DNA of 52,949 bases, from the sequence record PX651718.1; one strand, 5' to 3'. Position numbers and translations under genes: made by a program. Below the pieces are notes generated by a model. It was not told where the DNA came from and searched no databases. It saw only the letters and a list, made by a program, of their open reading frames with translations. Within the stretch, counting starts at the first letter, position 1; each line of letters opens with the position of its first letter. The DNA comes from a phage. Shown one piece after another: positions 16,105 through 40,291 of this stretch.

Positions 16105-16578
16105 ATGCCAAAGCAAGATTGGTCTATTAATACTGGTGAAGCATATGCAGGTGAACAATATGGCCTGGCTACCACCAACTCCCAGCGCCTGACCTACGTT
16201 GCCGAAGAAGAAATGGCAAACTTTGGTCTGGCTGTTGTTCAAGGCACAGCTTCTAATCAGGTTAAACCTGGTATTGGTTCTGATGGCACTGTTCTGGGCA
16301 TTACTATGCGCCAGATTAACATTGAATCCGCCACCCGTCCTGGTGACGGTACTGTTGCAATCAAAGTTGGCTGGCCTCTGGGTGTTATGCTGTCTGGCCC
16401 AATCATGGTCAAACTGAAAACTGCAATCACCGACAAGAACATTGGCGTATCCACTAAAGGCGAATTTGGCGGTGTTGGTGCTGGGTATACTAAAGCAACC
16501 AACCTGACTGCCCTGCGTTATCCGGCTTCCGCTGGCGATGTTGTCCCGGTCATGATTAACGTAGTCCCAAAGCCGTAA
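16105..16578 (+). CDS. small capsid-associated protein (decoration-like), zero-frame product
   Basis: Track ORF with AAGG RBS; directly upstream of the major capsid gene; 3' end carries a slippery heptamer. Confidence 0.6.
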   Translation: MPKQDWSINTGEAYAGEQYGLATTNSQRLTYVAEEEMANFGLAVVQGTASNQVKPGIGSDGTVLGITMRQINIESATRPGDGTVAIKVGWPLGVMLSGPIMVKLKTAITDKNIGVSTKGEFGGVGAGYTKATNLTALRYPASAGDVVPVMINVVPKP

Positions 16579-16871
16579 CGCCACCTCCAGCCCCTACAGT
16601 ATCTGCTGTAGCTGGAGTTGTAACGGCTGATGCGTCTTCTACTGATGCCACTGTAACTGTAGACAAGCTGTTCAAGTTTGAGAACTCTACAGCAACAGAT
16701 TATAACTTCGCTGTTACACCTCCTGTGACTGGTGTTTCTGTGGCGGCAAACGGCACTGTGACTGTCTTGAATGAGACGACTACAGAGACTTCTGCTACAA
16801 TTAAGGCAACAAACAAAACAACCTCTAGCGTAACTGCGACCAAAGAAATTACCATTACGCCGAAGGCTTAA
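16566..16871 (+). other. programmed -1 frameshift site (CCCAAAG, 16566-16572) and -1 frame extension of the 16105 gene encoding an Ig-like (T/S/V-rich) domain
   Basis: Heptamer C CCA AAG three codons before the zero-frame stop; the -1 frame is closed by TAA at 16557-16559 and then open for 101 codons to TAA at 16869-16871 with no ATG; hairpin CTCCAG...CTACAG/CTGTAG...CTGGAG starts about 12 nt downstream. Confidence 0.65.
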
Positions 16872-16926
16872 GTTGCAATGGCGCAATTAATGGTTGCGCC
16901 TCATCAAACAAAACGGATTAATTTAC

Positions 16927-17934
16927 ATGCCTAAGATGATTAAACTGGCGGACGGTTCTGAATTCGAACTGAACGACGCTATCACCCGTATTCAGGATTC
17001 TGGCACTGTTGTCCTGAATGACGACGATGCAGTATTCTTTCAACGCCAGCTTGAGTTCATTGAAGCTCAAACTTATGACACCCTGTATCCAGAACTGGAA
17101 GCGCGTGCTGCTTTCGGTGTGGACACCACTGGTGGTGCTGGCGTAAACACTCTGACCTACCGTTCCTACAACCATGTAGGTAAAGCTCAGGTAATTAATG
17201 CCCGTGCAACCGACCTGCCGAAGTCCAGCATTTCTGGTAAAGAATACAGCATCCCTGTTAAATCAGTTGGTACTGCATTCGACTACGATATTGACGAAGT
17301 AGCGTCTGCTGCTGTTACTGGCCTCCCGCTGGAAACTCGTAAAGCGAATGCTGCTATTCGTGGTTACGAGCAGTATGTTAACTCTGCTGCATGGTACGGC
17401 GATAAAGCTAACGGCTTTGTTGGCTTCTTCGAAAACCCAGACATTACCAAAGCAACTGTTGCTCAGGGTGCTGGTGGCTCTACCAAGTGGGCCGAGAAGA
17501 CTCCGACCGAAGTTATTGCTGACCTGACTGCTGCTGTGTCTGCAATGTATGCTTCTACTCTGAAAATTATGCGCCCGGATGAAATCTGGATGCCTGTTGA
17601 GCATGAGCAGTACATCTTCAACACTGCACGTTCTGAACAGTCTGATAAGACGATTGGTCAGTTCTTCATTGACAACAACCAGTTCATCAACTCCCGCGAT
17701 AAAATCAAGGGTCTGAACGCAATCAAGGGTCACGGCGATTCTGGCTCCGATTGCTTCGTTGTTGTTTGCCGCAATGCAATGGGCAACCGTACTTTCCGTC
17801 TGCGTGAGCCTCTGCCACTGACCTGGCAACCGGTACAGCTTCATGGTCTGGTTTATGAAGTTCCTGGCCGTGGTCGTTTCGCTGGCTTCCAAGCGATGTA
17901 TCCGGCAGCAATCTCCATCAACTCCGGCATCTGA
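16927..17934 (+). CDS. major capsid protein (putative)
   Basis: About 340-aa ORF downstream of scaffold and small capsid protein; high-expression-like codon usage; tandem stops TGA TAA; followed by a hairpin. Confidence 0.6.
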   Translation: MPKMIKLADGSEFELNDAITRIQDSGTVVLNDDDAVFFQRQLEFIEAQTYDTLYPELEARAAFGVDTTGGAGVNTLTYRSYNHVGKAQVINARATDLPKSSISGKEYSIPVKSVGTAFDYDIDEVASAAVTGLPLETRKANAAIRGYEQYVNSAAWYGDKANGFVGFFENPDITKATVAQGAGGSTKWAEKTPTEVIADLTAAVSAMYASTLKIMRPDEIWMPVEHEQYIFNTARSEQSDKTIGQFFIDNNQFINSRDKIKGLNAIKGHGDSGSDCFVVVCRNAMGNRTFRLREPLPLTWQPVQLHGLVYEVPGRGRFAGFQAMYPAAISINSGI

Positions 17935-19690: not shown

Positions 19691-21139
19691 ATGTCAATCC
19701 CAATTTCTGACTTAGTTCAGGTTGATATCGCAATCTCCCCGAACGCCATTGCGACTGATGGTTTTGGGCCATTGCTCTTCATGAGCAAAGAGTTTGTACC
19801 ATCTGTTGATATATATCCAGTTCGTTCTTACACCAGTTTGAAAGAAGTTCTGGCAGATTTCCCTGGTGGCGAGATTGCCAAAGCTGCTACTACTTGGTAC
19901 TCGCAGAAACCGACTCCGAAGACTTTCCTGGTCGGCGCTATCAAGAATGATACAATGACTCCAGCAACTCCTGCCACTGTTACTGCTGCATCTGCTGGTG
20001 TACTGTCAACGATTAAGCTGGAAACTGCTGCAACCCTACAGCTGAGTGTTAGTGGTGTTCAGTATGTCACTGACCCGATTAACTTCTCCTCTGCTGGAGA
20101 CTTTGAAGAAGTTGCAACCCTTGTAACTACTGCACTGTCTTCTGTTGGTGCTGGCGTAACTGTTACTCAAGATGCTGGCAAGTTTAAGCTGACTACTTCT
20201 GCAACTGGCGCTAATGCAACTATCAGCAACGTTGGTGGTAAAGTTGGGGAAGTGTTGAAGCTGCAATCTTCCGACAATGCAGTCACTGTTGATGGCAAGA
20301 ACGAGTTGTCTATTTCCTCCGACCTGGCTGCTATTGCAGATGCTCCATTTAACTTCTTCTATGTAGGTCTTGACCGCAAATACCGTGGCAAGTCTACTCC
20401 GGTAGACAACCAAATGTCTGTGGCGAAGTGGTGTGAAGCATCCAGCAAAGTATTTGGCTGGGGCGACAGCGACAAGAATATTCTTATCAACGGTACTAAC
20501 AACAGCTTCCGCCGTGCTAAGAACCAGAACCTGCGTAACACTTTGTGTGTTTACGATGCTTCTACAAATGGTGACGAATATCCGGAAATTTCTATTCTGG
20601 GTCGTGCATCAACTGTCAACTTTAATGTTGCAAACTCTGTCCTCACTCTGGCATACAAGAAAGGTCCAGGTGTTGCCACTGCTGACTTATCTTCTGGTCA
20701 GTTGAGCGCACTACTTTCTTGTGGTGGTAACGCATTCATCTCAGTTGCTGGCAACGTAATGTTCTACAACGGTCGCATGGCTGACGGTACGTGGTTCGAC
20801 TCCGTACAAGGTGTTGAATGGCTTACCCAGAAAGTTCGACTGAATGTGTTCAACTTGTTCTACACCTCCAATACCAAGATTCCTTGGACAGACACTGGTG
20901 TAGCGATGGTTAACCAACAAGTAACCCTGGCGCTCGAACTCGCCAAGACTAACGGCCTCATTGCCCCCGGCTACGATAACGAAGGCGTCTTCTACCCAGA
21001 AGGCTACAAAGTTATCTCCACTCCGTTAGAACTCTTGCAGTCGCAGAAGGGTGAACGTATTTGGGAAGGTACTTCCTTTATTGCTATCGGTTCCGGTGCA
21101 ATCCAGGGTGCTGTAATCTCTGGCAACTTCATTCAGTAA
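19691..21139 (+). CDS. major tail structural protein (sheath- or tube-like)
   Basis: 482-aa ORF with AAAAGG RBS, upstream of a small tube-like gene, chaperone and tape measure. Confidence 0.5.
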   Translation: MSIPISDLVQVDIAISPNAIATDGFGPLLFMSKEFVPSVDIYPVRSYTSLKEVLADFPGGEIAKAATTWYSQKPTPKTFLVGAIKNDTMTPATPATVTAASAGVLSTIKLETAATLQLSVSGVQYVTDPINFSSAGDFEEVATLVTTALSSVGAGVTVTQDAGKFKLTTSATGANATISNVGGKVGEVLKLQSSDNAVTVDGKNELSISSDLAAIADAPFNFFYVGLDRKYRGKSTPVDNQMSVAKWCEASSKVFGWGDSDKNILINGTNNSFRRAKNQNLRNTLCVYDASTNGDEYPEISILGRASTVNFNVANSVLTLAYKKGPGVATADLSSGQLSALLSCGGNAFISVAGNVMFYNGRMADGTWFDSVQGVEWLTQKVRLNVFNLFYTSNTKIPWTDTGVAMVNQQVTLALELAKTNGLIAPGYDNEGVFYPEGYKVISTPLELLQSQKGERIWEGTSFIAIGSGAIQGAVISGNFIQ

Positions 21140-21148
21140 GGGTGAACA

Positions 21149-21604
21149 GTGAAGCAATATTCGTTTTATAATACAGACCTCCTGATTGACGGTGCTCGTG
21201 TAGACGGTTTTCAGGCAGGGCAATCTGTAATTACGGCACGCTACAACGTGCCACAACATGTTCCTGTAATGGATGCTTACGGTAAACTTGCTGTAGCAAC
21301 CACTGCTGACCAGTCGGGGGTTATTACTTTCCCTCTGCTGCAAACGGCAGACTGGAACGAAATTCTGTATCAACGTGCACAGCTTACTCGTGCAACTGGC
21401 CTGTCTGGTAACAAATCCCTGTGGGAACCTTTGCAGATTCAGTTGGTGGATAAGATGGGCGACGTTCTGGTTAACGGTGTTAACGGTGCAATCCTGCAAC
21501 AGCCTGCTATTGTTCGTGGTGTAACCTTTACATCCAACATGTGGGCTATCTTTGTAGAGCGCCTCACCATCGTAACTGGCCAGTATCCAGAAATCGGCGT
21601 ATAA
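21149..21604 (+). CDS. tail tube protein (putative)
   Basis: 151-aa ORF between the major tail gene and the chaperone; GTG start with AAGGG RBS. Confidence 0.45.
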   Translation: MKQYSFYNTDLLIDGARVDGFQAGQSVITARYNVPQHVPVMDAYGKLAVATTADQSGVITFPLLQTADWNEILYQRAQLTRATGLSGNKSLWEPLQIQLVDKMGDVLVNGVNGAILQQPAIVRGVTFTSNMWAIFVERLTIVTGQYPEIGV

Positions 21605-21619
21605 CATTAAGGTAAGAGC

Positions 21620-22078
21620 ATGGCTTGTGAACTTCGTCAACGCGAGTTACAAGCCGACTCTGGTGATGTAGTCTTGGTTGGTACTCGTCAATTGAGTGCC
21701 AGCCAAGCTCTTGACCTACAAGTCGAGCTTGTTCAGAAACTTGGAACTTCAATCTTCCCATTCGTTGAGAATAAATATAACTTTGCAGACATTATTTATT
21801 TAATGCAGCAAGGTGGGACGAGTAACGAAGTAACAGAATTAATTAAACGTGTAGTGTGCATGGCAACCATTGATGGTGTCGAAGTTACTCCACGCACTAT
21901 GCAAATGAAATACAACGGCAACTTGATGCTTATGCACCATGTGTTTGCATTTGTTTTGGAATCGAACTTCCTTGATTTTTTCAAGCAAGGGCTCGAACTC
22001 AACGAACGCAGACGATTGGAGGCGGTGGAAGCATCCAAGATGGCCGAGCAGAAGAATTCGAGTCCGGAAACGATTTAA
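21620..22078 (+). CDS. tail assembly chaperone, zero-frame product (G-like)
   Basis: Position immediately upstream of the tape measure gene; contains a slippery heptamer and an open -1 frame downstream. Confidence 0.6.
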   Translation: MACELRQRELQADSGDVVLVGTRQLSASQALDLQVELVQKLGTSIFPFVENKYNFADIIYLMQQGGTSNEVTELIKRVVCMATIDGVEVTPRTMQMKYNGNLMLMHHVFAFVLESNFLDFFKQGLELNERRRLEAVEASKMAEQKNSSPETI

Positions 22079-22254
22079 CTGCAAAGTTCCCGGAAATAAA
22101 ATACTTCTTGCACCGTCCTGTAATAGAGGACAGTTCACTCTGTTCTCTTAAAGAGTTACAAGATGGGACCTACTCTATTATGGATTTGTTGACCTTCCAC
22201 GCAATACTCGATTTGCGTAACGAATTAAAACCTAAAGAAGAAGACAATGGCTAA
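21976..22254 (+). other. programmed -1 frameshift site (TTTTTTC, 21976-21982) and -1 frame extension (GT-like chaperone product)
   Basis: Heptamer T TTT TTC in the zero frame; the -1 frame has TGA at 21973-21975 then stays open for 92 codons to TAA at 22252-22254, ending where the tape measure gene begins. Confidence 0.6.
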
Positions 22255-25200
22255 TAACATAAAAGATTTGATGAGAATGTCCGAAGCCGAATTGATTGGC
22301 TTAGGCGCTCAATATGGTCTGTCGTTCAATCCAGGTATGCGCAAACGAGATATGGCACAGCAACTTGAATCAAGTGCTGCATCTGGTTGGATGGAAACAA
22401 ATTCGCAGCTCATGGAAGAAACCCATACAGAAGATGATGGCATCTCTTATGGCACTTCCGACATGATTTCAGACTCAGCCCACATTGCACAGATGATTTC
22501 TGGCGCTGGGCTGACTGAAACATTCCATGCTGCAATGAACGGTCCAAGTCACCATGTAGAAGCTATTCATGCCTACATGGAGAAATTAGGTGTATCCGCC
22601 GATGATGTGTGGATGCACATGCCCAAAGCAAACCCGAACAAACCGGAAGGTCATTGGGGAATGCTTAATGCGTACATGCGTGATACGCTGACAGGCCATC
22701 AAGATATAATGCCGGAGCTTCCTGGACATTATACAGGCGACATTATGGGCGAGTACTCCACAAACCGTGGAGATATTGCCAAGTCGTTCGGCTATCTTGC
22801 CCACATGTATGTTGACCGTGAACGATACGACAACCCAGACCGCTATGCACGAGATGTTTATCGTGTAGCCAAACGTTTAGAGTCAGAATTGCCGCAAAAC
22901 TTCCGAGAAGTTGCTGCTGTATCTGCAATGAATGTAGGAAATAAGTCGGGGCCAAAACTTTCATACATGGATTCATTGCCTAAACTTGGCTCTGAATCAA
23001 TTGTTAGTGGTATCCAACACCCTCGACAGCCACTTAACGCATCTGGTTTACCACTTGGCTCATTTGGCAGCGGTATTAATGCTGAATACTCATTATCTGC
23101 ATCCTTATCTGGCTCGCCAGGCTGGTCTGATGTAAGTAGGACTCTGTACCAAGATGTTTCTAGCGTAGTTAAGTCTGCGGCAAAGGTCTATTCTGGTGAT
23201 TCTGAAAGAGGAATGAACGCGTACCGCACTCAATCTTCTGACAGAGATTTGATTCTTGATTCTGCTTCCCGCTATGCAGACATTACAGATGTTCGTTCTG
23301 GGTATGAGAATCTTAAGAAAGATATTGGCGACGACCCTCGCTACTCTGGTGCATCCATCCGTGGTGTTCTTGAGAATGCTCACCAATATAATGAGGCAGA
23401 AGTAAGCAAGACATTTGACCCTGCTGAACGCTTAAGAAATACTGAACCTGCCGAACTAAGTCCTTCAACAGAGTTTATTACGCAACTCGATTCACCAACG
23501 AGTTGGAACTCTGCTCGCGCTCGTCGTGAGAGTATTGCTATATCTAACTTGGACTCTGCTCCACAACCAGCTCCGAAAGAAGGCCCAATCCATTATCACA
23601 ACATGGAACAGGGAACTCAGGAATGGTTGGACTTCCGCAAACAATACGACATTACTGGCTCCACTGTTGGTTCGTTTCTTGGTAACAATGAATACACCCG
23701 ACCTTGGGCTGCAATGATTGATAAAATTGGCCTACAACGCGGAAAGGGGCCAAGTGAATTTACTAAAAGAATGTTCGAAGCAGGTCATCGGACGGAAGAA
23801 ATTGCTCGTAACCGTGTCGCCAAAGAGTTTGGATTCGATATCGAGCAAGCTGGCGCAATAACAAATGACAATTATCCGTCGTTCATGTATTCTCCAGATG
23901 GCCTTATCGGTGATGACGCGATTTGGGAACACAAGAATCCTGAAAGGGCTAAAAAGTTTTCTAATCTCTCTGCTGGCGAGCATAAGGACTATTTCGACCA
24001 AATTCAATTTGGCTTGCTTGTATCTGGCCGTAGTCGTGCACTGTTCTCTCAGACAATCGGAGACAAGACGGTATCTGAGTGGATTGAGAAAGACGAGGGA
24101 TGGTACGAGCGCAACAAAGATAAGATTGATTCTACTATTGGGCGTCTCAATGCTGGTCGAAAGTTTGTTGAAGATAATCCAGACCTACCTAATGATGAAT
24201 TAATCAAGGGTGCTCGTGCTGCAATGACTGGCGATGGCATCTGGAAAGATGTTAAGCAAAGGTCAACTCGTGGATATTCTGCCGCAGCTGGAACACCTGA
24301 TGACCCATTCATAGGCAACCGCACTGATGCTGGAATTGGTGAGGCCACGACTTCTGCCGTAGGCTCTGACAGCACGACTGGCAATGACTCGATGGCAATA
24401 TCTGTCAAGAAAGGTATTCTTGCTGCACAGGAAGAAAACAAACTGCGTGGACAAGATGCCGACTTTGGTGGAAATGATGGTCGTGGTGGCGGTGGTGGCT
24501 TCTGGGATACATTTGATGCCAGCAGTTATGGTATCAGCGGAGGCGGTTCTGGTGGCGGCGGTCGTGGTGGTTGGAGGGTTGGCGGTAGCTTCTCAGATGA
24601 CTTCGGTCGTGCTGGTGGAGCATTGGCTGCTGGCGTAGCTGGTGGCAGCATTGGTTCATTATCCAATGGCGCAATGAATGCCCTCATGATGACTCCTTGG
24701 GGTCGTGTAGCTGGCATGGCTATTGGTGCTGCCCAGATTGGTAATGAAGCTCTGGAAGGTCTGAACGACTTCTACGGCAATTCTTTGGATGCTGGTGTTA
24801 ATAATCCTAACGAATATTCTTCCATGACTCAGGGCATGGAAATGTTGGGACTTAACTCACAACAAGCCAATCGACTCAATCAAACCACACATAGTGCCTA
24901 TAACACCCTCCTAAATGGCGACCCCAGCGGCGCTGTGAACATCGTTCAGGGAACCCGTGGTCTTATCACAATTGGCGACATTCGTGCGGCACAGGGCGAC
25001 CCTGTGGCCCTAGCGCGGATAATGCGTGAGCGTGGTCAGGAACGGGGTTGGAGTCAGGCCCGTATTGCTGGTGCAATGCAAATGGCTGGTCTGGATGGCA
25101 TGGCCCGTGCCTATGACCGCACAGAATACAGCATGGGCGAGGCTGAGGCGAACGTTAAGCGTGGAGCCGACTCAAACTACGCCGAAGGCGTTGCACAGCT

Positions 25201-25918
25201 GGGAATCGCGCAGACGGAGCGTGCTGGGGTATTGCCTGGATACGCCGTTCCGCAAGCTGCAATCTCATACGGCAGCACCTTTATTGAGGCAGGTGGCGAT
25301 GCCGCTAGAACGATGCGTGTGGCCTCCAACGGTACAGCCGATGCAGCACGTAATGTTTATGACTTTATCGCAGGAGAAGAGTCAGGGAACCGCGATTTTA
25401 ACGCAGATGGTTCGGTAGTTACATCGCCAACTGGTGCTAAAGGTCGTATGCAAGTTCTTGATTCAACTTCTCGTGACCCTGGCTTTGGTGTTCGTCCTGC
25501 CAAAGATAACTCACTTGAAGAACGTGCCCGTGTTGGTCGTGACTATTACGATGCAATGCTTAAGCGATATAATGGTGACGCTGAGAAGGCTATGGCGGCG
25601 TACACAGATGGTGCCGGAACTGTTGATGATGCTATCAACAAACATGGGACCGACTGGCTGAACGCTGTTCCACTACAGGCACAGAACCGTGTCAAGAAGT
25701 ACCGCGAATGGGCTTCTCAGGGAGATTCTATTGCAGAAGGTGCAACCGGATTCACCAGAAACGGACTGTCCTATGGTCAGACACAGCCCACCATAGTTAA
25801 CGTTGAAGTCAAAGCTACCGTGAACAACAAACAAGCGTCTGCAACCGTGTCAACTCCGAACGGTCAAACTGTTACCCAAACAATCAACATGGGTAATGGT
25901 GCAATGGAACGCAGATAA
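22247..25918 (+). CDS. tail tape measure protein with lytic transglycosylase (SLT-like) region and Gly-rich low-complexity segment
   Basis: 1223-aa ORF after the chaperone pair; SLT-like motif EESGNRD ... GAKGRMQV; Gly-rich block around residues 740-800. Confidence 0.7.
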   Translation: MANNIKDLMRMSEAELIGLGAQYGLSFNPGMRKRDMAQQLESSAASGWMETNSQLMEETHTEDDGISYGTSDMISDSAHIAQMISGAGLTETFHAAMNGPSHHVEAIHAYMEKLGVSADDVWMHMPKANPNKPEGHWGMLNAYMRDTLTGHQDIMPELPGHYTGDIMGEYSTNRGDIAKSFGYLAHMYVDRERYDNPDRYARDVYRVAKRLESELPQNFREVAAVSAMNVGNKSGPKLSYMDSLPKLGSESIVSGIQHPRQPLNASGLPLGSFGSGINAEYSLSASLSGSPGWSDVSRTLYQDVSSVVKSAAKVYSGDSERGMNAYRTQSSDRDLILDSASRYADITDVRSGYENLKKDIGDDPRYSGASIRGVLENAHQYNEAEVSKTFDPAERLRNTEPAELSPSTEFITQLDSPTSWNSARARRESIAISNLDSAPQPAPKEGPIHYHNMEQGTQEWLDFRKQYDITGSTVGSFLGNNEYTRPWAAMIDKIGLQRGKGPSEFTKRMFEAGHRTEEIARNRVAKEFGFDIEQAGAITNDNYPSFMYSPDGLIGDDAIWEHKNPERAKKFSNLSAGEHKDYFDQIQFGLLVSGRSRALFSQTIGDKTVSEWIEKDEGWYERNKDKIDSTIGRLNAGRKFVEDNPDLPNDELIKGARAAMTGDGIWKDVKQRSTRGYSAAAGTPDDPFIGNRTDAGIGEATTSAVGSDSTTGNDSMAISVKKGILAAQEENKLRGQDADFGGNDGRGGGGGFWDTFDASSYGISGGGSGGGGRGGWRVGGSFSDDFGRAGGALAAGVAGGSIGSLSNGAMNALMMTPWGRVAGMAIGAAQIGNEALEGLNDFYGNSLDAGVNNPNEYSSMTQGMEMLGLNSQQANRLNQTTHSAYNTLLNGDPSGAVNIVQGTRGLITIGDIRAAQGDPVALARIMRERGQERGWSQARIAGAMQMAGLDGMARAYDRTEYSMGEAEANVKRGADSNYAEGVAQLGIAQTERAGVLPGYAVPQAAISYGSTFIEAGGDAARTMRVASNGTADAARNVYDFIAGEESGNRDFNADGSVVTSPTGAKGRMQVLDSTSRDPGFGVRPAKDNSLEERARVGRDYYDAMLKRYNGDAEKAMAAYTDGAGTVDDAINKHGTDWLNAVPLQAQNRVKKYREWASQGDSIAEGATGFTRNGLSYGQTQPTIVNVEVKATVNNKQASATVSTPNGQTVTQTINMGNGAMERR

Positions 25919-36084: not shown

Positions 36085-36639
36085 ATGTTATCATTCAAAG
36101 TCCTTGCACTTCTGGCAGCTTTAGTTCACATCAACGCCCCAGCTTCGGTTGGGGCAGTGAATTCTGCTATTACAGATTTTGCAAGTCACTCTTATTTAAA
36201 TGGAAGTCTGAAACTATCTTCTTCACAACGCAAAGAGCTAGAATGCTATACTAAAGTTATCTGGTATGAAGCTCGCGGAGAAGACAAACATGGAAAGATT
36301 CTGGTAGCTAATGTCGTCCGTAATAGAACTAAGTTCGGGAAGCCATTCGCTAACACCGTTTGTGATGTTGTCTATCAACGCAATCAATTTGCATGGACAC
36401 GAGAAGCAAAGAAGAAGAATGCTCAATGGAAGCATGTAGCAAAGATTAATTATGCCACAGAACAACAACAAGTTCTGGACACTATTAATGTTGCAATCTC
36501 TTTTGTACTATTTAATCAACCCTCTGTCACCAAAGCAACCCACTTTTGTACAGCATCGGAGAAGTGCAACTTCAAGAATGTTAAAGGCTTGGGACGTTAT
36601 GGTGGCCATAAATTCTATGAGTATCTAGGAAATCTGTAA
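36085..36639 (+). CDS. cell wall hydrolase (SleB / Hydrolase_2-like) with N-terminal signal or SAR sequence; candidate endolysin
   Basis: N-terminus [24 protein letters not shown]; core [12 protein letters not shown] ... NVVRNR ... [14 protein letters not shown] typical of the SleB family; RBS AAGGA. Confidence 0.75.
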
Positions 36640-37739
36640 TGGCTTACACTACCTTTTCACAAACCAAGAATAACCAACTACTAGAGCCAATGTTCTTTGG
36701 TCAGAACGTTAACGTTGCCCGATATGACCAACAGAAGTACAGCATCTTCGAGAAGTTAATCGAGAAGCAGTTATCTTTCTTTTGGCGACCTGAGGAGGTT
36801 GATGTTAGCCAGGACCGAATTGACTATGCTGGTCTGCCTGAATGCGAGAAGCACATCTTCACCAGCAATTTACGATACCAAATCCTGCTCGATTCCATTC
36901 AGGGGCGTGGACCAACCACAGTTTTGCTGCCAATTGTGAGCATTCCTGAGCTGGAAACTTGGATTGAAACTTGGTCATTCTCAGAGACAATCCACTCTCG
37001 TTCTTACACGCACATTATTCGTAATATCGTGACAGACCCAAGTGTAATTTTCGATGAAATTGTGGAAAATGAGCACATTAAAATGCGTGCAATTGGCATC
37101 TCCCAATATTATGACGAGCTTCAACATCTGACTTCCATGTGGCATTTGCATGAAGATAAAGTTTCTCTTCGTGAGCTTAAGAAGAAGCTGTATTTATGCC
37201 TCATGTCCATTAATGCACTGGAAGCAATTCGCTTTTATGTCAGTTTTGCTTGCTCATTTGCCTTCGCTGAACGCAAGTTAATGGAAGGAAATGCCAAGAT
37301 TATTCGCTTAATTGCTCGTGATGAAGCACTCCATTTGACCGGAACTCAACACATGCTGAACCTTCTTGCAAGCGGTGTTGATGACCCAGAAATGGCAGAA
37401 ATTGCTAAAGAATGCCGTCAAGAATGTCAAGAAATGTTCGAAAATGTGGCCCAACAAGAGAAAGATTGGGCTGATTATTTGTTCAAAGATGGCTCAATGA
37501 TTGGCTTAAATAAGCAAATTCTGTGCGGATATGTGGAATATATCACGAATATTCGTATGCAAGCAGTTGGATTGGATGCTCCATTCAAAGGTGCTACTAA
37601 CCCGATTCCTTGGATTAGCTCATGGTTGAATTCGGATGCCGTACAAGTTGCTCCACAGGAAACGGAGATTAGTTCGTACCTTGTTGGGCAGATTGACTCC
37701 GAAGTTGACACCAATGCTCTGGGCGGATTTGAGCTTTAA
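36639..37739 (+). CDS. nrdB: ribonucleotide reductase class Ia small subunit (NrdB)
   Basis: By recall very similar to E. coli NrdB ([11 protein letters not shown] ..., [21 protein letters not shown]); iron ligands and tyrosyl radical residue conserved ([10 protein letters not shown]). Confidence 0.9.
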
Positions 37740-37750
37740 CGATTATATGC

Positions 37751-37788
37751 GAGAAGAGATTCGATGCGTTAGCGTCGTTTCTCTTTGA
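37751..37788 (+). terminator. rho-independent terminator
   Basis: Hairpin CGATGCG-TTA-GCGTCG followed by TTTCTCTTT directly after the nrdB stop. Confidence 0.5.
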
Positions 37789-37828
37789 GCTAGAATAAAA
37801 CAAGTAAATTAAATATTTATTTATTCCC

Positions 37829-37845
37829 AATATTGCTACAATATT
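37829..37845 (+). promoter_or_regulatory. perfect 17-bp palindrome AATATTG-CTA-CAATATT (candidate operator or promoter element)
   Basis: Exact inverted repeat; related copies at 38025, 40374 and 41075. Confidence 0.4.
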
Positions 37846-37884
37846 AAGAGTAATATTAGGAATGCGTAAAGTTAAAACCAAATG

Positions 37885-37947
37885 GTACATGGTCGGTCAA
37901 CTGTACCTGGACATAGATTCGTTCACGGTCGGTCAGCTGTATCTCGC
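37885..37947 (+). repeat. two direct repeats GTACATGGTCGGTCAACTGTACCTGG / CGGTCGGTCAGCTGTATCTCG
   Basis: Near-identical 20-26 nt units about 40 nt apart; a third copy at 41129. Confidence 0.5.
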
Positions 37948-38024
37948 CAAAATTTGTTCGAATGGAAGACCGACTATTAAATAATTTTTTTTTTATAATT
38001 TTTTTTTTAATTTAAATATTGCTA

Positions 38025-38041
38025 CAGAATTAATGAGACTA
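38025..38041 (+). promoter_or_regulatory. imperfect copy of the AATATTG palindrome (AATATTGCTACAGAATT) in an A/T-tract region
   Basis: Flanked by long poly-T/poly-A tracts (37975-38000, 38081-38100). Confidence 0.3.
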
Positions 38042-38268
38042 GAATTCGTAACAAAGCTACGAGACTCAAATTGCGGCAATATTATAATTTTTTATTTTTT
38101 GGGCCAGCGGGGAGGGGAAGCCCAACGTCCTATCGGACTTAAATACGGTCCCTACTCCAACTTTTTCCTACAGCCTATCGGCTTAATGATAACACCAAGT
38201 TAGGCGCTTCGCTTATGAGTCAAGGTCAAAGTCTTCGTGCTGTTGTAACAGTGGCACAGGTTTGTGAT

Positions 38269-38284
38269 ATTAGTTGGTTGTGAA
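38269..38284 (+). promoter_or_regulatory. conserved promoter-like motif, variant ATTAGTTGGTTGTGAA
   Basis: Member of the ATTAGTTGGATGTGAA family; 67 nt upstream of the RNA polymerase start. Confidence 0.4.
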
Positions 38285-38350
38285 TTGTGTAATGGCTACG
38301 CTATTATAATCCGTTTCAGTTAAATCATACACAATCTTGGAGACTTACAA

Positions 38351-40291
38351 ATGACTACTATCACCACTCAAACTATCAAATCCGTTGTTCCTGCTATCAC
38401 TGCTCTGGTATACCGTGCCAAAGAGAAGCAGAACTATATGCAGCCTCAGACTTGTGCTATTGCTGCCTTAGCCATATTCAAGATGATGACGTCTTTCACA
38501 CGTGATGACGTTGTTCCTGCCATTGCGATGGTTGAGCTGGCTTCTGCTTCTATTGCTGATGCCAACCGTTACAACAACGATTTGAAAGCAATGCACTATG
38601 TTGACCCAGCTATCAACCTCATTGGTCTGGCTAAGCACTTTGGCTTCATCACCATGAACGAAGACAAGTCATTCCAACAAACTGATACATGGGTTGAACT
38701 GGTTACAACCAAAGACACCGCAGTGCCATTCACCGAGCGTGTTACATCTGAATCTCGTCGCAAGCCTTTCGTTAAAGGTGGCAAAGTTAAGCCATCCAAA
38801 ACTCTGAAAGCTGCAATCGAATTCCTGCAAGATACTGAGTACCATGTGGAGACTGAGATGGTTCGCATCATTCAGTCCATGCTTGAGCAACGTACTTATG
38901 GTGGCTTGCAGATGCCAGAAGCAATCCAGACTGAACTCCATGTTTGGAACAATGCTGTAGCAATGATGAATCAAGACACTCTGTACTCTGACTACTTTGC
39001 TGATAACCGTGGTCGTTTGTATCACGTAGCATGTGCTGGTCCTAACCCACAATCCTCTGACTTTGCTCGTTGCTTGTATTCTCACAATGTTGAGAACATC
39101 GTTAAGAAGTTTAACGAAGATGGTTCTACTACCATTGCATACAACATGTTCATGGCAGAGCTGGAAGATATTTCCGGTGGTGAATGGTGCAGTGCTAAGC
39201 GTTTAACTTATGTTGCACAGAATCCTGCTGGTTCTTTGGCCCGTATGCTGAACATGCCTAAAGCTGAACGTCCTTCTAAGCCATTCACTTATGTTCGTCT
39301 GGCTCTGGATTGGTTCAAGTTTGAGACTACAGGTGAGTGTGATTCTCGTGTAGGCTTTGGCTTAGATGCTAAATGCTCTGGTACTCAATATCTGGCATTC
39401 ATTGCAGGTAACATGGAAATGGCTCGTGCAACAGGTCTGGTTGATTCTGAGACTAAAGCATCTGACCCATACCAGTTATCTCTTCGTGAACTGTTGAAAT
39501 TACTCGACCGTTCTTCAATGAAACCTTCTGTTGAAATCATGGAAGAGTTCTTGAACCCTAAAGCTGGTCGTAAGTTTATCAAAACTCCATACATGGCTAT
39601 TCAATACGGTGGTGGTAAAGCTGCTTTAACTGGTTCATCTGACTTTATCTCCTACATGACAGAAGCTCTCCAGATTCCTATGGAGAAAGTTGAGGCATTT
39701 GCTGAACTGTGTGTAGAAGCAATCCATAACGCATTGGGTGCTAAGATTAACATGTTCATTGAGAAAGCTGCTGATGCTGCATACAACCGTTGTGTTGAAC
39801 TTGGTAAAGAGTACATCACATATCGTCACACTGATGGTCAGGTTGTAATGAAGCCTTGCTTCCCATCTCGTGAAATCTGTGAGGCATTCAGCATTCGTGT
39901 TGATTCTCAAACTCGTGTTATCTTTGGCCAGATTCAGGAGAATAAGCCTTGGACCATTCGTGAATCCAATCCAACTAAAGAAGAATTCAAGCGTACTTTC
40001 GTTGTTAACTACATTCAAGGTATTGACGCACTTGTTGCTCGTACTGTTGCAGTTAAAGCTAAAGAAGCTGGTCTTCGTGGTTTTACTTCAATCCATGATT
40101 GTTTCCGTTGCTGTTTGGCAGATGCTCCACGTATGATGGAAGTTATTCGTGCAGCATATGTTGAAATCTTTGTAACCAACAATCAATTCGAGAATCTGTC
40201 TAAGCAACTCGGTGGCATTCAGATGTATCATGAGAACATCGTAACCGAAGAGCTTCTGATGAGCGAACACGCTTACTACTTCTGTCAATAA
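38351..40291 (+). CDS. single-subunit DNA-dependent RNA polymerase (T7-like, compact 646 aa)
   Basis: Motif A-like LDAKCSGTQY (compare T7 DGSCSGIQH); motif B RKFIKTPYMAIQYGG; motif C SIHDCF; RBS GGAG. Confidence 0.85.
   Translation: MTTITTQTIKSVVPAITALVYRAKEKQNYMQPQTCAIAALAIFKMMTSFTRDDVVPAIAMVELASASIADANRYNNDLKAMHYVDPAINLIGLAKHFGFITMNEDKSFQQTDTWVELVTTKDTAVPFTERVTSESRRKPFVKGGKVKPSKTLKAAIEFLQDTEYHVETEMVRIIQSMLEQRTYGGLQMPEAIQTELHVWNNAVAMMNQDTLYSDYFADNRGRLYHVACAGPNPQSSDFARCLYSHNVENIVKKFNEDGSTTIAYNMFMAELEDISGGEWCSAKRLTYVAQNPAGSLARMLNMPKAERPSKPFTYVRLALDWFKFETTGECDSRVGFGLDAKCSGTQYLAFIAGNMEMARATGLVDSETKASDPYQLSLRELLKLLDRSSMKPSVEIMEEFLNPKAGRKFIKTPYMAIQYGGGKAALTGSSDFISYMTEALQIPMEKVEAFAELCVEAIHNALGAKINMFIEKAADAAYNRCVELGKEYITYRHTDGQVVMKPCFPSREICEAFSIRVDSQTRVIFGQIQENKPWTIRESNPTKEEFKRTFVVNYIQGIDALVARTVAVKAKEAGLRGFTSIHDCFRCCLADAPRMMEVIRAAYVEIFVTNNQFENLSKQLGGIQMYHENIVTEELLMSEHAYYFCQ

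What the first reader, a model, noticed from the sequence alone, without database searches (positions are those of the whole stretch)
21976..22254. Second -1 frameshift: tail assembly chaperone G/GT-type arrangement upstream of the tape measure gene
The gene at 21620..22078 contains T TTT TTC (21976-21982). The -1 frame has a stop immediately before the heptamer (TGA 21973-21975) and is then open for 92 codons, ending at 22252-22254 exactly where the tape measure gene starts. This is the conserved chaperone frameshift of long-tailed phages and supports the tail-module assignment.
Basis: partly seen in the sequence, partly recalled or inferred. Interest (0 to 1): 0.5.

Follow-up and report, generated by a model that had tools for sequence, protein, structure and literature searches.

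The report
Tail chaperone -1 frameshift site
This is the ordinary "G/GT" ribosomal frameshift that long-tailed phages use to make two versions of a tail-assembly chaperone; here it sits in a Chaseviridae coliphage, is conserved across the family, and is missing from every database annotation I examined.

Summary
Gene 21620..22078 (152 aa, Pfam Phage_TAC_15) carries T TTT TTC at 21976-21982 in the X XXY YYZ register. The -1 frame is closed by TGA at 21973-75. It is then open to TAA at 22252-54, which overlaps the ATG (22247) of the 1223-aa gene in tape-measure position.

The window is a Chaseviridae myophage, 99.9% identical to Escherichia phage PO103-1. Among 28 distinct relatives, down to about 29% chaperone identity, 27 keep TTTTTTC in register and one has GTTTTTC. 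All keep the -1 frame open to the next gene.

Four further results support translation by frameshift:
- The -1 product ends in a strongly conserved domain of about 50 aa.
- No conserved start codon or Shine-Dalgarno sequence precedes that domain.
- Synonymous sites are frozen in the overlap (83% versus 45% identical codons).
- One metagenomic phage encodes the chaperone and T-like domains fused in frame.

This T6 run is also the only A/T run of six or more in 44 kb of coding sequence. About 30 are expected.

Best reading: a -1 programmed ribosomal frameshift yields G (17.2 kDa) and GT (23.8 kDa), without a supported RNA stimulator. It is a new, unannotated member of a well-known kind. Interest is low to moderate.

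The parts
21149..21604 (+). Tail tube gene (151 aa, GTG start), immediately upstream of the chaperone gene. It is the inferred binding partner of the T domain.
   Evidence: phrog_280 at 1.9e-30 over residues 1-146. Annotated as tail tube protein in PO103-1, 4HA13 and PYps23T. It follows the sheath gene 19691..21139 (DUF3383, phrog_205).
21620..22078 (+). Gene G (TAC-N): zero-frame tail assembly chaperone, 152 aa, 17.2 kDa.
21973..21975 (+). TGA stop in the -1 frame directly before the heptamer. It sets the 5' limit of the window in which the shift can occur.
   Evidence: Sequence read and script. In relatives this stop lies 0-72 nt upstream of the heptamer, so its exact position is not conserved.
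21976..21982 (+). Slippery heptamer T TTT TTC (X XXY YYZ in the zero frame). It is the proposed site of tandem -1 slippage of two tRNA-Phe.
   Evidence: It is conserved in register in 27 of 28 distinct relatives, although the preceding codon changes (GAT, AGT, GCT and others). Faunus has G TTT TTC. It is the only A/T run of six or more in coding sequence of the window.
21982..22254 (+). T segment: -1 frame extension of 90 codons plus TAA. The predicted fusion GT is join(21620..21982,21982..22254), 211 aa, 23.8 kDa.
   Evidence: Translation and alignment across 20 relatives. No conserved start codon or SD precedes the conserved domain, and SSEM1 has no ATG/GTG/TTG in the whole extension. Synonymous sites are frozen in the overlap 21983-22075. 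Mass.
22087..22227 (+). Conserved C-terminal T domain (FPEIKYFLHRPVIEDSSLCSLKELQDGTYSIMDLLTFHAILDLRNEL), related to Pfam DUF6889.
   Evidence: phrog_4364 at 9.6e-18. Strongly conserved block. A profile of it finds 66 cluster representatives. One is P0070, which has Phage_TAC_15 and DUF6889 in one frame. The direct Pfam DUF6889 match of the window sequence is sub-threshold (E=0.024-0.05).
22247..25918 (+). Gene in tape-measure position (1223 aa), with a YqaJ-like nuclease domain and a C-terminal SLT lytic transglycosylase domain. Its ATG overlaps the GT stop by 8 nt.
   Evidence: Pfam YqaJ at 2.3e-12 (residues 459-595) and SLT at 1.2e-6 (1058-1134). phrog_19855 full-length match. PDB exonuclease 3syy at 2.5e-6. 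The homologue was identified in 4HA13 virions by LC-MS/MS and is called tape measure there (PMC9699118).

Best explanation
This is a -1 programmed ribosomal frameshift of the lambda G/GT and P2 E/E+E' type.

Most ribosomes translate 21620..22078 and release the 152-aa chaperone G (TAC-N). A minority slip at gaU UUU UUC. The two tRNA-Phe on UUU (P site) and UUC (A site) move back one base onto UUU UUU. Decoding then continues at CAA (21982) in the -1 frame for 90 codons to TAA 22252-54. The result is a 211-aa GT (TAC-NC) that shares residues 1-121 with G and ends in a conserved T domain of about 50 aa.

By analogy with lambda, G and the G part of GT coat the 1223-aa protein encoded next. The T domain recruits the tube protein (21149..21604). 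Neither chaperone stays in the virion.

Shown here: the sequence anatomy, its conservation, dual-coding constraint in the overlap, and the lack of an independent start. Inferred: that the shift is ribosomal, its efficiency, and the binding partners. No RNA stimulator is supported, as in lambda and P2.
For: - Anatomy is exact.
- G is a Phage_TAC_15 / phrog_11820 chaperone lying between the tube gene and the tape-measure-position gene.
- The window is a Chaseviridae phage.
- TTTTTTC is kept in register in 27 of 28 distinct relatives from both subfamilies, from metagenomes and from Hafnia alvei chromosomes, down to about 29% identity. The preceding codon varies but keeps T3.
- The -1 frame is open from the heptamer to the next gene's start in all of them.
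- The T extension aligns with a strongly conserved C-terminal domain.
- No conserved ATG/GTG/TTG or SD lies before that domain. Phage SSEM1 has none at all in the extension.
- At conserved residues, codons are identical in 83% of pairs inside the overlap against 45% upstream. Fisher p = 2e-5 versus ST32 and 1e-4 versus PP101.
- Rosetta-stone case: metagenomic protein P0070 has Phage_TAC_15 (5e-11) and DUF6889 (2.5e-12) in one frame. It sits next to a separate TAC_15-only gene.
- This is the only A/T run of six or more in 44 kb of ORFs, where about 30 are expected. In Y2 the count is 5 against 36 expected, and the chaperone site is the only T6.
- Precedents: lambda G/GT (PMC5009743); P2 TTTTTTG without a hairpin (PMC3091744); a GTTTTT motif in Vandenendeviridae and Andersonviridae chaperones (PMC12846349).
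Against: - No protein, ribosome-profiling or reporter data exist for this phage or any relative that I could find.
- No stimulatory structure is supported. The MFE z-score is 0.29 against shuffles. The alifold consensus is -0.42 kcal/mol in Cleopatravirinae and shows no pairs in Nefertitivirinae.
- Erwinia phage Faunus has G TTT TTC. This breaks P-site re-pairing at the first position.
- A U-insertion by RNA polymerase at the T6 run would give the identical protein, and the sequence cannot distinguish the two.
- The T domain alone could not be modelled (pLDDT 48), so its tube-binding role rests on analogy only.
- The window's T sequence is below the Pfam DUF6889 threshold.
Confidence: 0.85

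Rival explanations
1. Transcriptional slippage. The host RNA polymerase or the phage-encoded single-subunit RNA polymerase occasionally inserts one extra U at the T6 run. Standard translation of the edited mRNA then yields the same GT protein.
For: - The product would be identical (...DFF-QARAR...).
- Chaseviridae encode a T7-like RNA polymerase (PMC12842549).
- A/T homopolymers of six or more are almost purged from coding sequence in the window and in Y2. This would fit a strong cost of slippage on such runs.
Against: - From my own knowledge, documented programmed transcriptional slippage uses runs of roughly 8-9 or more A/T. This run is 6, and only 5 in Faunus and in the GTTTTT motif reported for related families.
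- The run is always placed in the exact X XXY YYZ register with C as Z.
- The analogous P2 TTTTTTG site is treated in the literature as a translational frameshift (PMC3091744).
Confidence: 0.08
2. There is no recoding. The 3' part of the -1 frame (22108..22254, TTG start, 48 aa) is an independent small gene, as annotated in several relatives (phrog_4364). The heptamer is then merely the way Phe-Phe is encoded.
For: - Several GenBank records annotate a separate 37-73 aa ORF here, including 2KOFFS, ST32, GJ1, PP101, Myduc, ZPAH140, BUCT696 and pAh6-C.
- phrog_4364 exists as a family of such small ORFs.
Against: - The annotated starts differ from phage to phage and mostly fall inside the conserved domain. 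None has an SD, and SSEM1 has no start codon at all in the -1 extension.
- The -1 frame is open all the way back to the heptamer in every relative.
- Synonymous sites of G are frozen exactly where the two frames overlap.
- An in-frame TAC_15 + DUF6889 fusion exists.
- 21 of the other 22 Phe-Phe pairs avoid TTT TTC.
Confidence: 0.03
3. The shift is real but happens at another position in the 100-nt overlap (21983-22075), or by a different event. One candidate is termination-reinitiation at the G stop.
For: In principle, any shift between the -1 stop (21975) and the G stop (22078) would join the frames.
Against: - T TTT TTC is the only in-register XXXYYYZ heptamer in the gene. It is also the only element invariant at nucleotide level across the family.
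- Reinitiation would need a start codon near 22078, and none is conserved.
Confidence: 0.03

Closest known systems
Phage lambda G/GT tail assembly chaperone frameshift (Levin, Hendrix, Casjens 1993; Xu, Hendrix, Duda 2004, 2013, 2014; summarised in PMC5009743)
   Same: - The gene sits between the major tail (tube) gene and the tape measure gene.
- A -1 shift occurs at an X XXY YYZ heptamer near the 3' end of G.
- The T ORF has no start of its own and ends at the next gene.
- Two products share an N-terminus.
- No stimulatory RNA structure is needed.
   Different: - The heptamer is T TTT TTC rather than G GGA AAG.
- Sequence similarity was not tested.
- The tail is contractile.
- The downstream protein carries YqaJ and SLT domains.
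- The efficiency (about 1:30 in lambda) is unknown here.
Phage P2 E / E+E' frameshift (Christie et al. 2002; described in PMC3091744)
   Same: - It is a contractile-tailed phage.
- It uses a T-rich heptamer, TTTTTTG, that differs from this one only in the last base.
- The shift is -1 and occurs just upstream of the tape measure gene.
- No downstream hairpin is present.
   Different: - The proteins are smaller (91 and 142 aa against 152 and 211 aa).
- Homology between the proteins was not tested.
- The Z base is C, so the A-site tRNA is tRNA-Phe on UUC rather than tRNA-Leu on UUG.
TAC-N / TAC-NC -1 frameshift with a conserved GTTTTT motif in Vandenendeviridae (Pakpunavirus, E217-like) and Andersonviridae (PMC12846349, 2025)
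   Same: - These are myoviruses, and the window's structural proteins match Pfam families named after phage E217 (cement protein, sheath).
- The downstream piece is routinely mis-annotated as a hypothetical protein.
- The -1 frame is uninterrupted in all genomes.
- A poly-T slippery motif lies at the 3' end of TAC-N. The Faunus variant GTTTTTC matches that motif.
   Different: - The virus family is different.
- The motif here is T6C in 27 of 28 lineages.
- I did not compare the proteins directly.
- That paper does not treat the Chaseviridae chaperone locus. Its only mention of Chaseviridae concerns a tail fibre.
Separate TAC-N and in-frame TAC-NC genes (metagenomic contig L044: 171-aa TAC_15 gene followed by 194-aa TAC_15 + DUF6889 gene P0070)
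   Same: It has the same two domain families (Phage_TAC_15 and a T-like DUF6889 domain) in the same order. The junction lies after a ...ENFGVFF motif that corresponds to ...ESNFLDFF here.
   Different: - There are two genes and no frameshift.
- The paralogues are only about 31% identical over 84 residues.
- The next gene is Dit-like rather than a long tape-measure-like gene.

Membership tests
G/GT-type tail assembly chaperone -1 programmed frameshift | The gene pair lies between the major tail/tube gene and the tape measure gene. | tested here: met
   Gene order is sheath 19691..21139, tube 21149..21604, G 21620..22078, T to 22254, then the 1223-aa gene from 22247. The order is the same in all relatives.
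G/GT-type tail assembly chaperone -1 programmed frameshift | The downstream ORF is in the -1 frame, overlaps the 3' end of G, and has no translation start of its own. | tested here: met
   The -1 frame is open 21976..22251. No conserved start or SD precedes the conserved domain in 20 relatives, and SSEM1 has none at all.
G/GT-type tail assembly chaperone -1 programmed frameshift | A canonical slippery heptamer X XXY YYZ lies in zero-frame register within the overlap. | tested here: met
   gaT TTT TTC at 21976-21982. It is the only such heptamer in the gene.
G/GT-type tail assembly chaperone -1 programmed frameshift | The heptamer and the open -1 frame are conserved in divergent relatives. | tested here: met
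   27 of 28 distinct lineages have TTTTTTC and one has GTTTTTC. All have an open -1 frame ending at the next gene. Synonymous-site suppression in the overlap is shown.
G/GT-type tail assembly chaperone -1 programmed frameshift | Both G and a minor GT fusion protein are actually made, in a fixed ratio. | not testable with these tools
   No proteomic or reporter data were found. No fused protein is present in the 5.8-billion-protein collection.
G/GT-type tail assembly chaperone -1 programmed frameshift | The chaperones are required for tail assembly but absent from virions. G binds the tape measure protein and T binds the tube protein. | not testable with these tools
   There is only a weak hint. 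The G homologue is not among the twelve virion proteins named in the 4HA13 LC-MS/MS figure legend (PMC9699118).
Pfam Phage_TAC_15 (PF21822) | The whole-protein score is above the curated gathering cutoff. | tested here: met
   57 bits against a cutoff of 22, E=3.6e-15, covering residues 23-126.
Tail assembly chaperone fold (HK97 chaperone 2ob9, YqbN 3klu) | Structural similarity of the G domain to solved chaperones. | tested here: inconclusive
Pfam DUF6889 (PF21829) for the T domain | The score is above the gathering cutoff. | tested here: not met
   13.8-14.8 bits against a cutoff of 23.9. Relatedness is supported only indirectly. The profile of the window's T domain hits the DUF6889 region of P0070 at E=7.6e-6 against 1.8 billion proteins.
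Tape measure protein (downstream gene) | It is the first gene after the chaperone pair, is a virion protein, and has a length scaling with tail length. | tested here: inconclusive
   The position criterion is met. A homologue was found in virions (PMC9699118). It has 1223 aa against tails of 116-166 nm (PMC12842549). However, it contains globular YqaJ and SLT domains, and a ruler function was not tested.
Programmed transcriptional slippage site | A long A/T homopolymer, typically about 8-9 nt or more (from my own knowledge). | tested here: not met
   The run is 6 T here and 5 T in Faunus.

The most novel reading that the evidence does not exclude
The GT fusion may be made not by the ribosome but by slippage of the phage's own T7-like RNA polymerase on the single T6 run that this genome tolerates. 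Under this reading, the near-total purge of A/T runs of six or more from Chaseviridae coding sequence reflects an unusually slippage-prone transcription or translation system. The counts are 1 observed against about 30 expected here, and 5 against about 36 in Y2. The chaperone site would be the one place where that slippage is harnessed.
Probability: 0.08. Interest if true: 0.5.

Novelty: new member of a known kind. Interest (0 to 1): 0.27.

Why it matters
Practically, it corrects the annotation of a whole phage family. All 23 distinct GenBank records inspected either leave a gap of about 170 nt here or call a meaningless 37-73 aa orphan ORF (phrog_4364). No fused GT protein exists in a 5.8-billion-protein collection.

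It also links orphan small ORFs of the DUF6889 type to the C-terminal domain of tail assembly chaperones. An in-frame two-gene version (L044) provides a natural control for that link.

Conceptually it adds nothing new to the G/GT paradigm. The T6C site, unique in a genome otherwise purged of A/T runs, is a clean system for measuring frameshift efficiency without a stimulator.

Tried and rejected
1. Downstream RNA stimulator. A 9-bp long-range stem, GGGCUCGAA (21989-97) with UUCGAGUCC (22057-65) and a 6-nt spacer, is predicted. However, the MFE is no better than shuffles (z 0.29). The alignment consensus is -0.42 kcal/mol in Cleopatravirinae, and Nefertitivirinae show no pairs. The local nucleotide conservation (CAAGGGCTCGAA) is explained by dual coding. 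Rejected as unsupported.

2. Upstream SD-like stimulator. None is visible in the 30 nt before the heptamer.

3. Rfam. There were no hits in the window.

4. Independent small ORF. Rejected.

5. Structure of the T segment. AF2 gave pLDDT 48, which is unusable, so no fold search was run on it.

6. PDB sequence search with the G profile. Nothing significant was found.

7. Looking for an annotated fusion. The GT query in the 5.8-billion-protein database found only G-length hits at 58% coverage. The T query found only four small ORFs.

8. Long repetitive proteins (P0046, P0048, P0091 and others) hit by the T profile are compositionally biased or unrelated repeats, for example CBM_14. I dismissed them.

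9. Literature. No mention of a frameshift was found in the searchable Chaseviridae papers on 4HA13, ST32, Myduc, PP101, Mangalitsa or the ICTV profile. The original phiEcoM-GJ1 and Y2 papers are not held, so an earlier mention there cannot be excluded.

Full report
**1. Observation**

ORF 21620..22078 is 152 aa and starts with ATG. It reads ...ctt gaT TTT TTC aag..., so T TTT TTC at 21976-21982 is in the X XXY YYZ register of the zero frame.

The -1 frame has TGA at 21973-75. It is then open to TAA at 22252-54. That is 92 codons from 21976, or 90 new residues after a tandem slip. The next ORF (22247..25918, 1223 aa) starts with an ATG that overlaps this stop by 8 nt.

**2. Identity of the genes and the genome**

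- The ORF is a tail assembly chaperone. It scores 57 bits against Pfam Phage_TAC_15 (cutoff 22) and matches phrog_11820 at 2.7e-58.
- Upstream lie the sheath gene (DUF3383, phrog_205) and the tube gene (phrog_280).
- Downstream lies a full-length match to phrog_19855 that carries YqaJ and SLT domains, followed by a baseplate hub gene.
- The last 50 residues of the -1 frame match phrog_4364, a family of small ORFs of unknown function.
- The window is 99.9% identical over this region to Escherichia phages PO103-1 and Ecp_YSF. It belongs to Chaseviridae, subfamily Cleopatravirinae.

**3.

I fetched the locus from three sources:
- 23 distinct GenBank phages covering both subfamilies, with hosts in Escherichia, Shigella, Yersinia, Pectobacterium, Erwinia, Pantoea, Proteus, Vibrio, Aeromonas and Shewanella.
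- IMG/VR metagenomic contigs.
- Contigs carrying database homologues, including two Hafnia alvei chromosomes.

Chaperone identity to the window falls to about 29%. There are 28 distinct T peptides (27, plus pAh6-C). Of these, 27 have TTTTTTC in the same register and one (Erwinia phage Faunus) has GTTTTTC.

The codon before the run changes its amino acid (GAT, AGT, GCT and others) but keeps T in third position. In every lineage the -1 frame is open from the heptamer to a stop that overlaps or abuts the start of the large downstream gene.

The -1 products align well. They have a low-complexity Arg/Gly-rich linker followed by a strongly conserved block (FPxIxYFLHRPvIEDSSLCxLxELqDGTYSxxDLLxFHxILDLRxxL).

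**4. Is the -1 ORF reached by frameshift or by its own start?**

In the 20 relatives scanned there is no conserved ATG, GTG or TTG, and no SD-like sequence, ahead of the conserved domain. In many relatives the first possible start falls inside the domain. Phage SSEM1 has no start codon anywhere in the extension.

Synonymous sites of G show the dual-coding signature. Among Cleopatravirinae pairs, identical residues use the identical codon in 45% of cases upstream of the heptamer. In the overlap the figure is 83%. Window versus ST32 gives 28/69 against 23/26, Fisher p = 2e-5. PP101 gives p = 1e-4 and 4HA13 gives p = 4e-4.

A profile of the T domain was searched against 1.8 billion cluster representatives. 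It finds mostly orphan ORFs of 35-110 aa. It also finds P0070 (194 aa), which has Phage_TAC_15 (5e-11) and DUF6889 (2.5e-12) in one reading frame. P0070 lies next to a separate TAC_15-only gene on a 52-kb contig. This is a natural in-frame version of G plus GT.

**5. Chance and genome context**

- The -1 frame of this window's ORFs has a stop every 12 codons or so (frequency 0.081). That gives P of about 5e-4 for 90 open codons in a single sequence.
- Of 32 in-register heptamers in long + strand ORFs, only this one and C CCA AAG at 16566 have a long -1 extension that is not simply the next gene.
- The T6 run at 21976 is the only A/T homopolymer of six or more in 66 ORFs (44 kb). Synonymous shuffles give 29.5 +/- 4.6, and never fewer than 14.
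- Of 22 Phe-Phe pairs, the other 21 begin with TTC.
- Erwinia phage Y2 shows the same depletion: 5 observed against 35.8 +/- 4.7 expected. The chaperone site is its only T6.

The genome avoids slippery runs except here.

**6. Stimulators**

None is supported.
- A 9-bp stem (21989-97 with 22057-65, 6-nt spacer) appears in the MFE fold. The fold is no more stable than shuffles (z 0.29).
- The alignment consensus is negligible in Cleopatravirinae and absent in Nefertitivirinae.
- Rfam finds nothing.

This matches lambda and P2, where no structure is needed (PMC5009743; PMC3091744).

**7. Structure**

**8. Mechanism**

The best-supported reading is tandem -1 slippage of two tRNA-Phe on U UUU UUC. 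It gives G (17.2 kDa) and a minor GT (23.8 kDa). The functions are inferred by analogy with lambda: G coats the tape-measure-like protein and T recruits the tube protein (PMC5009743).

Transcriptional insertion of a U would give the same protein and cannot be excluded from sequence. The run is short, however: T6 here, and T5 in Faunus and in the GTTTTT motif of related families.

**9. What is known**

G/GT frameshifting is a textbook feature of long-tailed phages. P2 uses TTTTTTG. A 2025 paper makes the same argument for Vandenendeviridae and Andersonviridae with a GTTTTT motif (PMC12846349).

For Chaseviridae I found no description. The searchable papers on 4HA13, ST32, Myduc, PP101, Mangalitsa and the ICTV profile do not mention a frameshift. 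None of the 23 distinct records inspected annotates a joined CDS. No fused protein exists in the 5.8-billion-protein collection. The two founding papers on GJ1 and Y2 could not be read.

**10. Verdict**

This is a new, unannotated member of a well-known kind. Interest is low to moderate. It lies mainly in annotation repair, in the link between DUF6889 orphan ORFs and chaperone C-terminal domains, and in the striking uniqueness of the T6 run in the genome.

Noticed in passing
window 16566-16871 (gene 16105..16578): C CCA AAG lies in zero-frame register two codons before the stop of the cement/decoration protein gene (Pfam Phage_cement, 2.5e-17). The -1 frame is open for 99 codons and matches phrog_13745 'Ig domain containing protein' (9e-8). 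It ends just before the major capsid gene 16894..17934. In Y2 the equivalent piece is annotated as a separate 'Ig domain containing protein' (gp67).
   Followed up: partly
window 22247-25918: The 1223-aa protein in tape-measure position contains a YqaJ-like nuclease domain (residues 459-595; PDB exonuclease 3syy at 2.5e-6), Gly-rich tracts and a C-terminal SLT lytic transglycosylase domain. GenBank records call it variously tail fiber, tail tube initiator, tape measure, exonuclease or virion structural protein. A nuclease-like domain inside a tape-measure-position virion protein is unusual.
   Followed up: partly
whole window; Y2 locus L048: A/T homopolymers of six or more are almost absent from coding sequence. 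The window has 1 against 29.5 +/- 4.6 expected from synonymous shuffles. Y2 has 5 against 35.8 +/- 4.7. No A run of six or more occurs anywhere in the window on either strand's T/A count, except the T runs listed. The cause was not examined. Candidates are selection against ribosomal, RNA polymerase or DNA polymerase slippage.
   Followed up: partly
window 37740-38350: A gap of about 600 nt contains no ORF longer than 56 aa. It lies between ORFs 36639..37739 and 38351..40291. It holds two T10 runs (37985, 37999) and two T6 runs (38088, 38095), followed by a GC-rich palindromic-looking stretch (gggccagcggggaggggaagccc). It could be a regulatory or origin region, or a module boundary.
   Followed up: no
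L040 / L041 (Hafnia alvei GCA_002206365.2 contig NJFP02000002.1, 4.8 Mb; GCA_016103045.1): Two Hafnia alvei chromosomal contigs carry a Chaseviridae-like capsid-to-tail module. It runs major capsid, terminator, sheath, tube, TAC_15 with T TTT TTC and -1 ORF, then a YqaJ+SLT protein. The family is described as strictly lytic. This could be a prophage, a relic or an assembly chimera.
   Followed up: no
L044 2493-3585 (ENA ERZ25070720 contig ctg115445l): This phage contig has two adjacent chaperone genes instead of a frameshift. One is a 171-aa TAC_15-only gene. The other is a 194-aa TAC_15 + DUF6889 in-frame gene, followed directly by a Dit-like gene.
   Followed up: partly
L013 1560-1566 (Erwinia phage Faunus, NC_047978): This is the only lineage with G TTT TTC instead of T TTT TTC. 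Its -1 frame and T domain are intact. The variant equals the GTTTTT motif reported for Vandenendeviridae and Andersonviridae chaperones (PMC12846349).
   Followed up: partly
window 21149-21604; L001, L002, L004 1270-1605; L045 1550: There are start-site inconsistencies in public records. The tube gene of this lineage starts at GTG 21149 (151 aa, full phrog_280 match). PO103-1, 2KOFFS and PYps23T annotate a 111-aa version from an internal ATG. Mangalitsa annotates the large downstream gene about 390 nt after the chaperone stop, leaving the T ORF unannotated.
   Followed up: no
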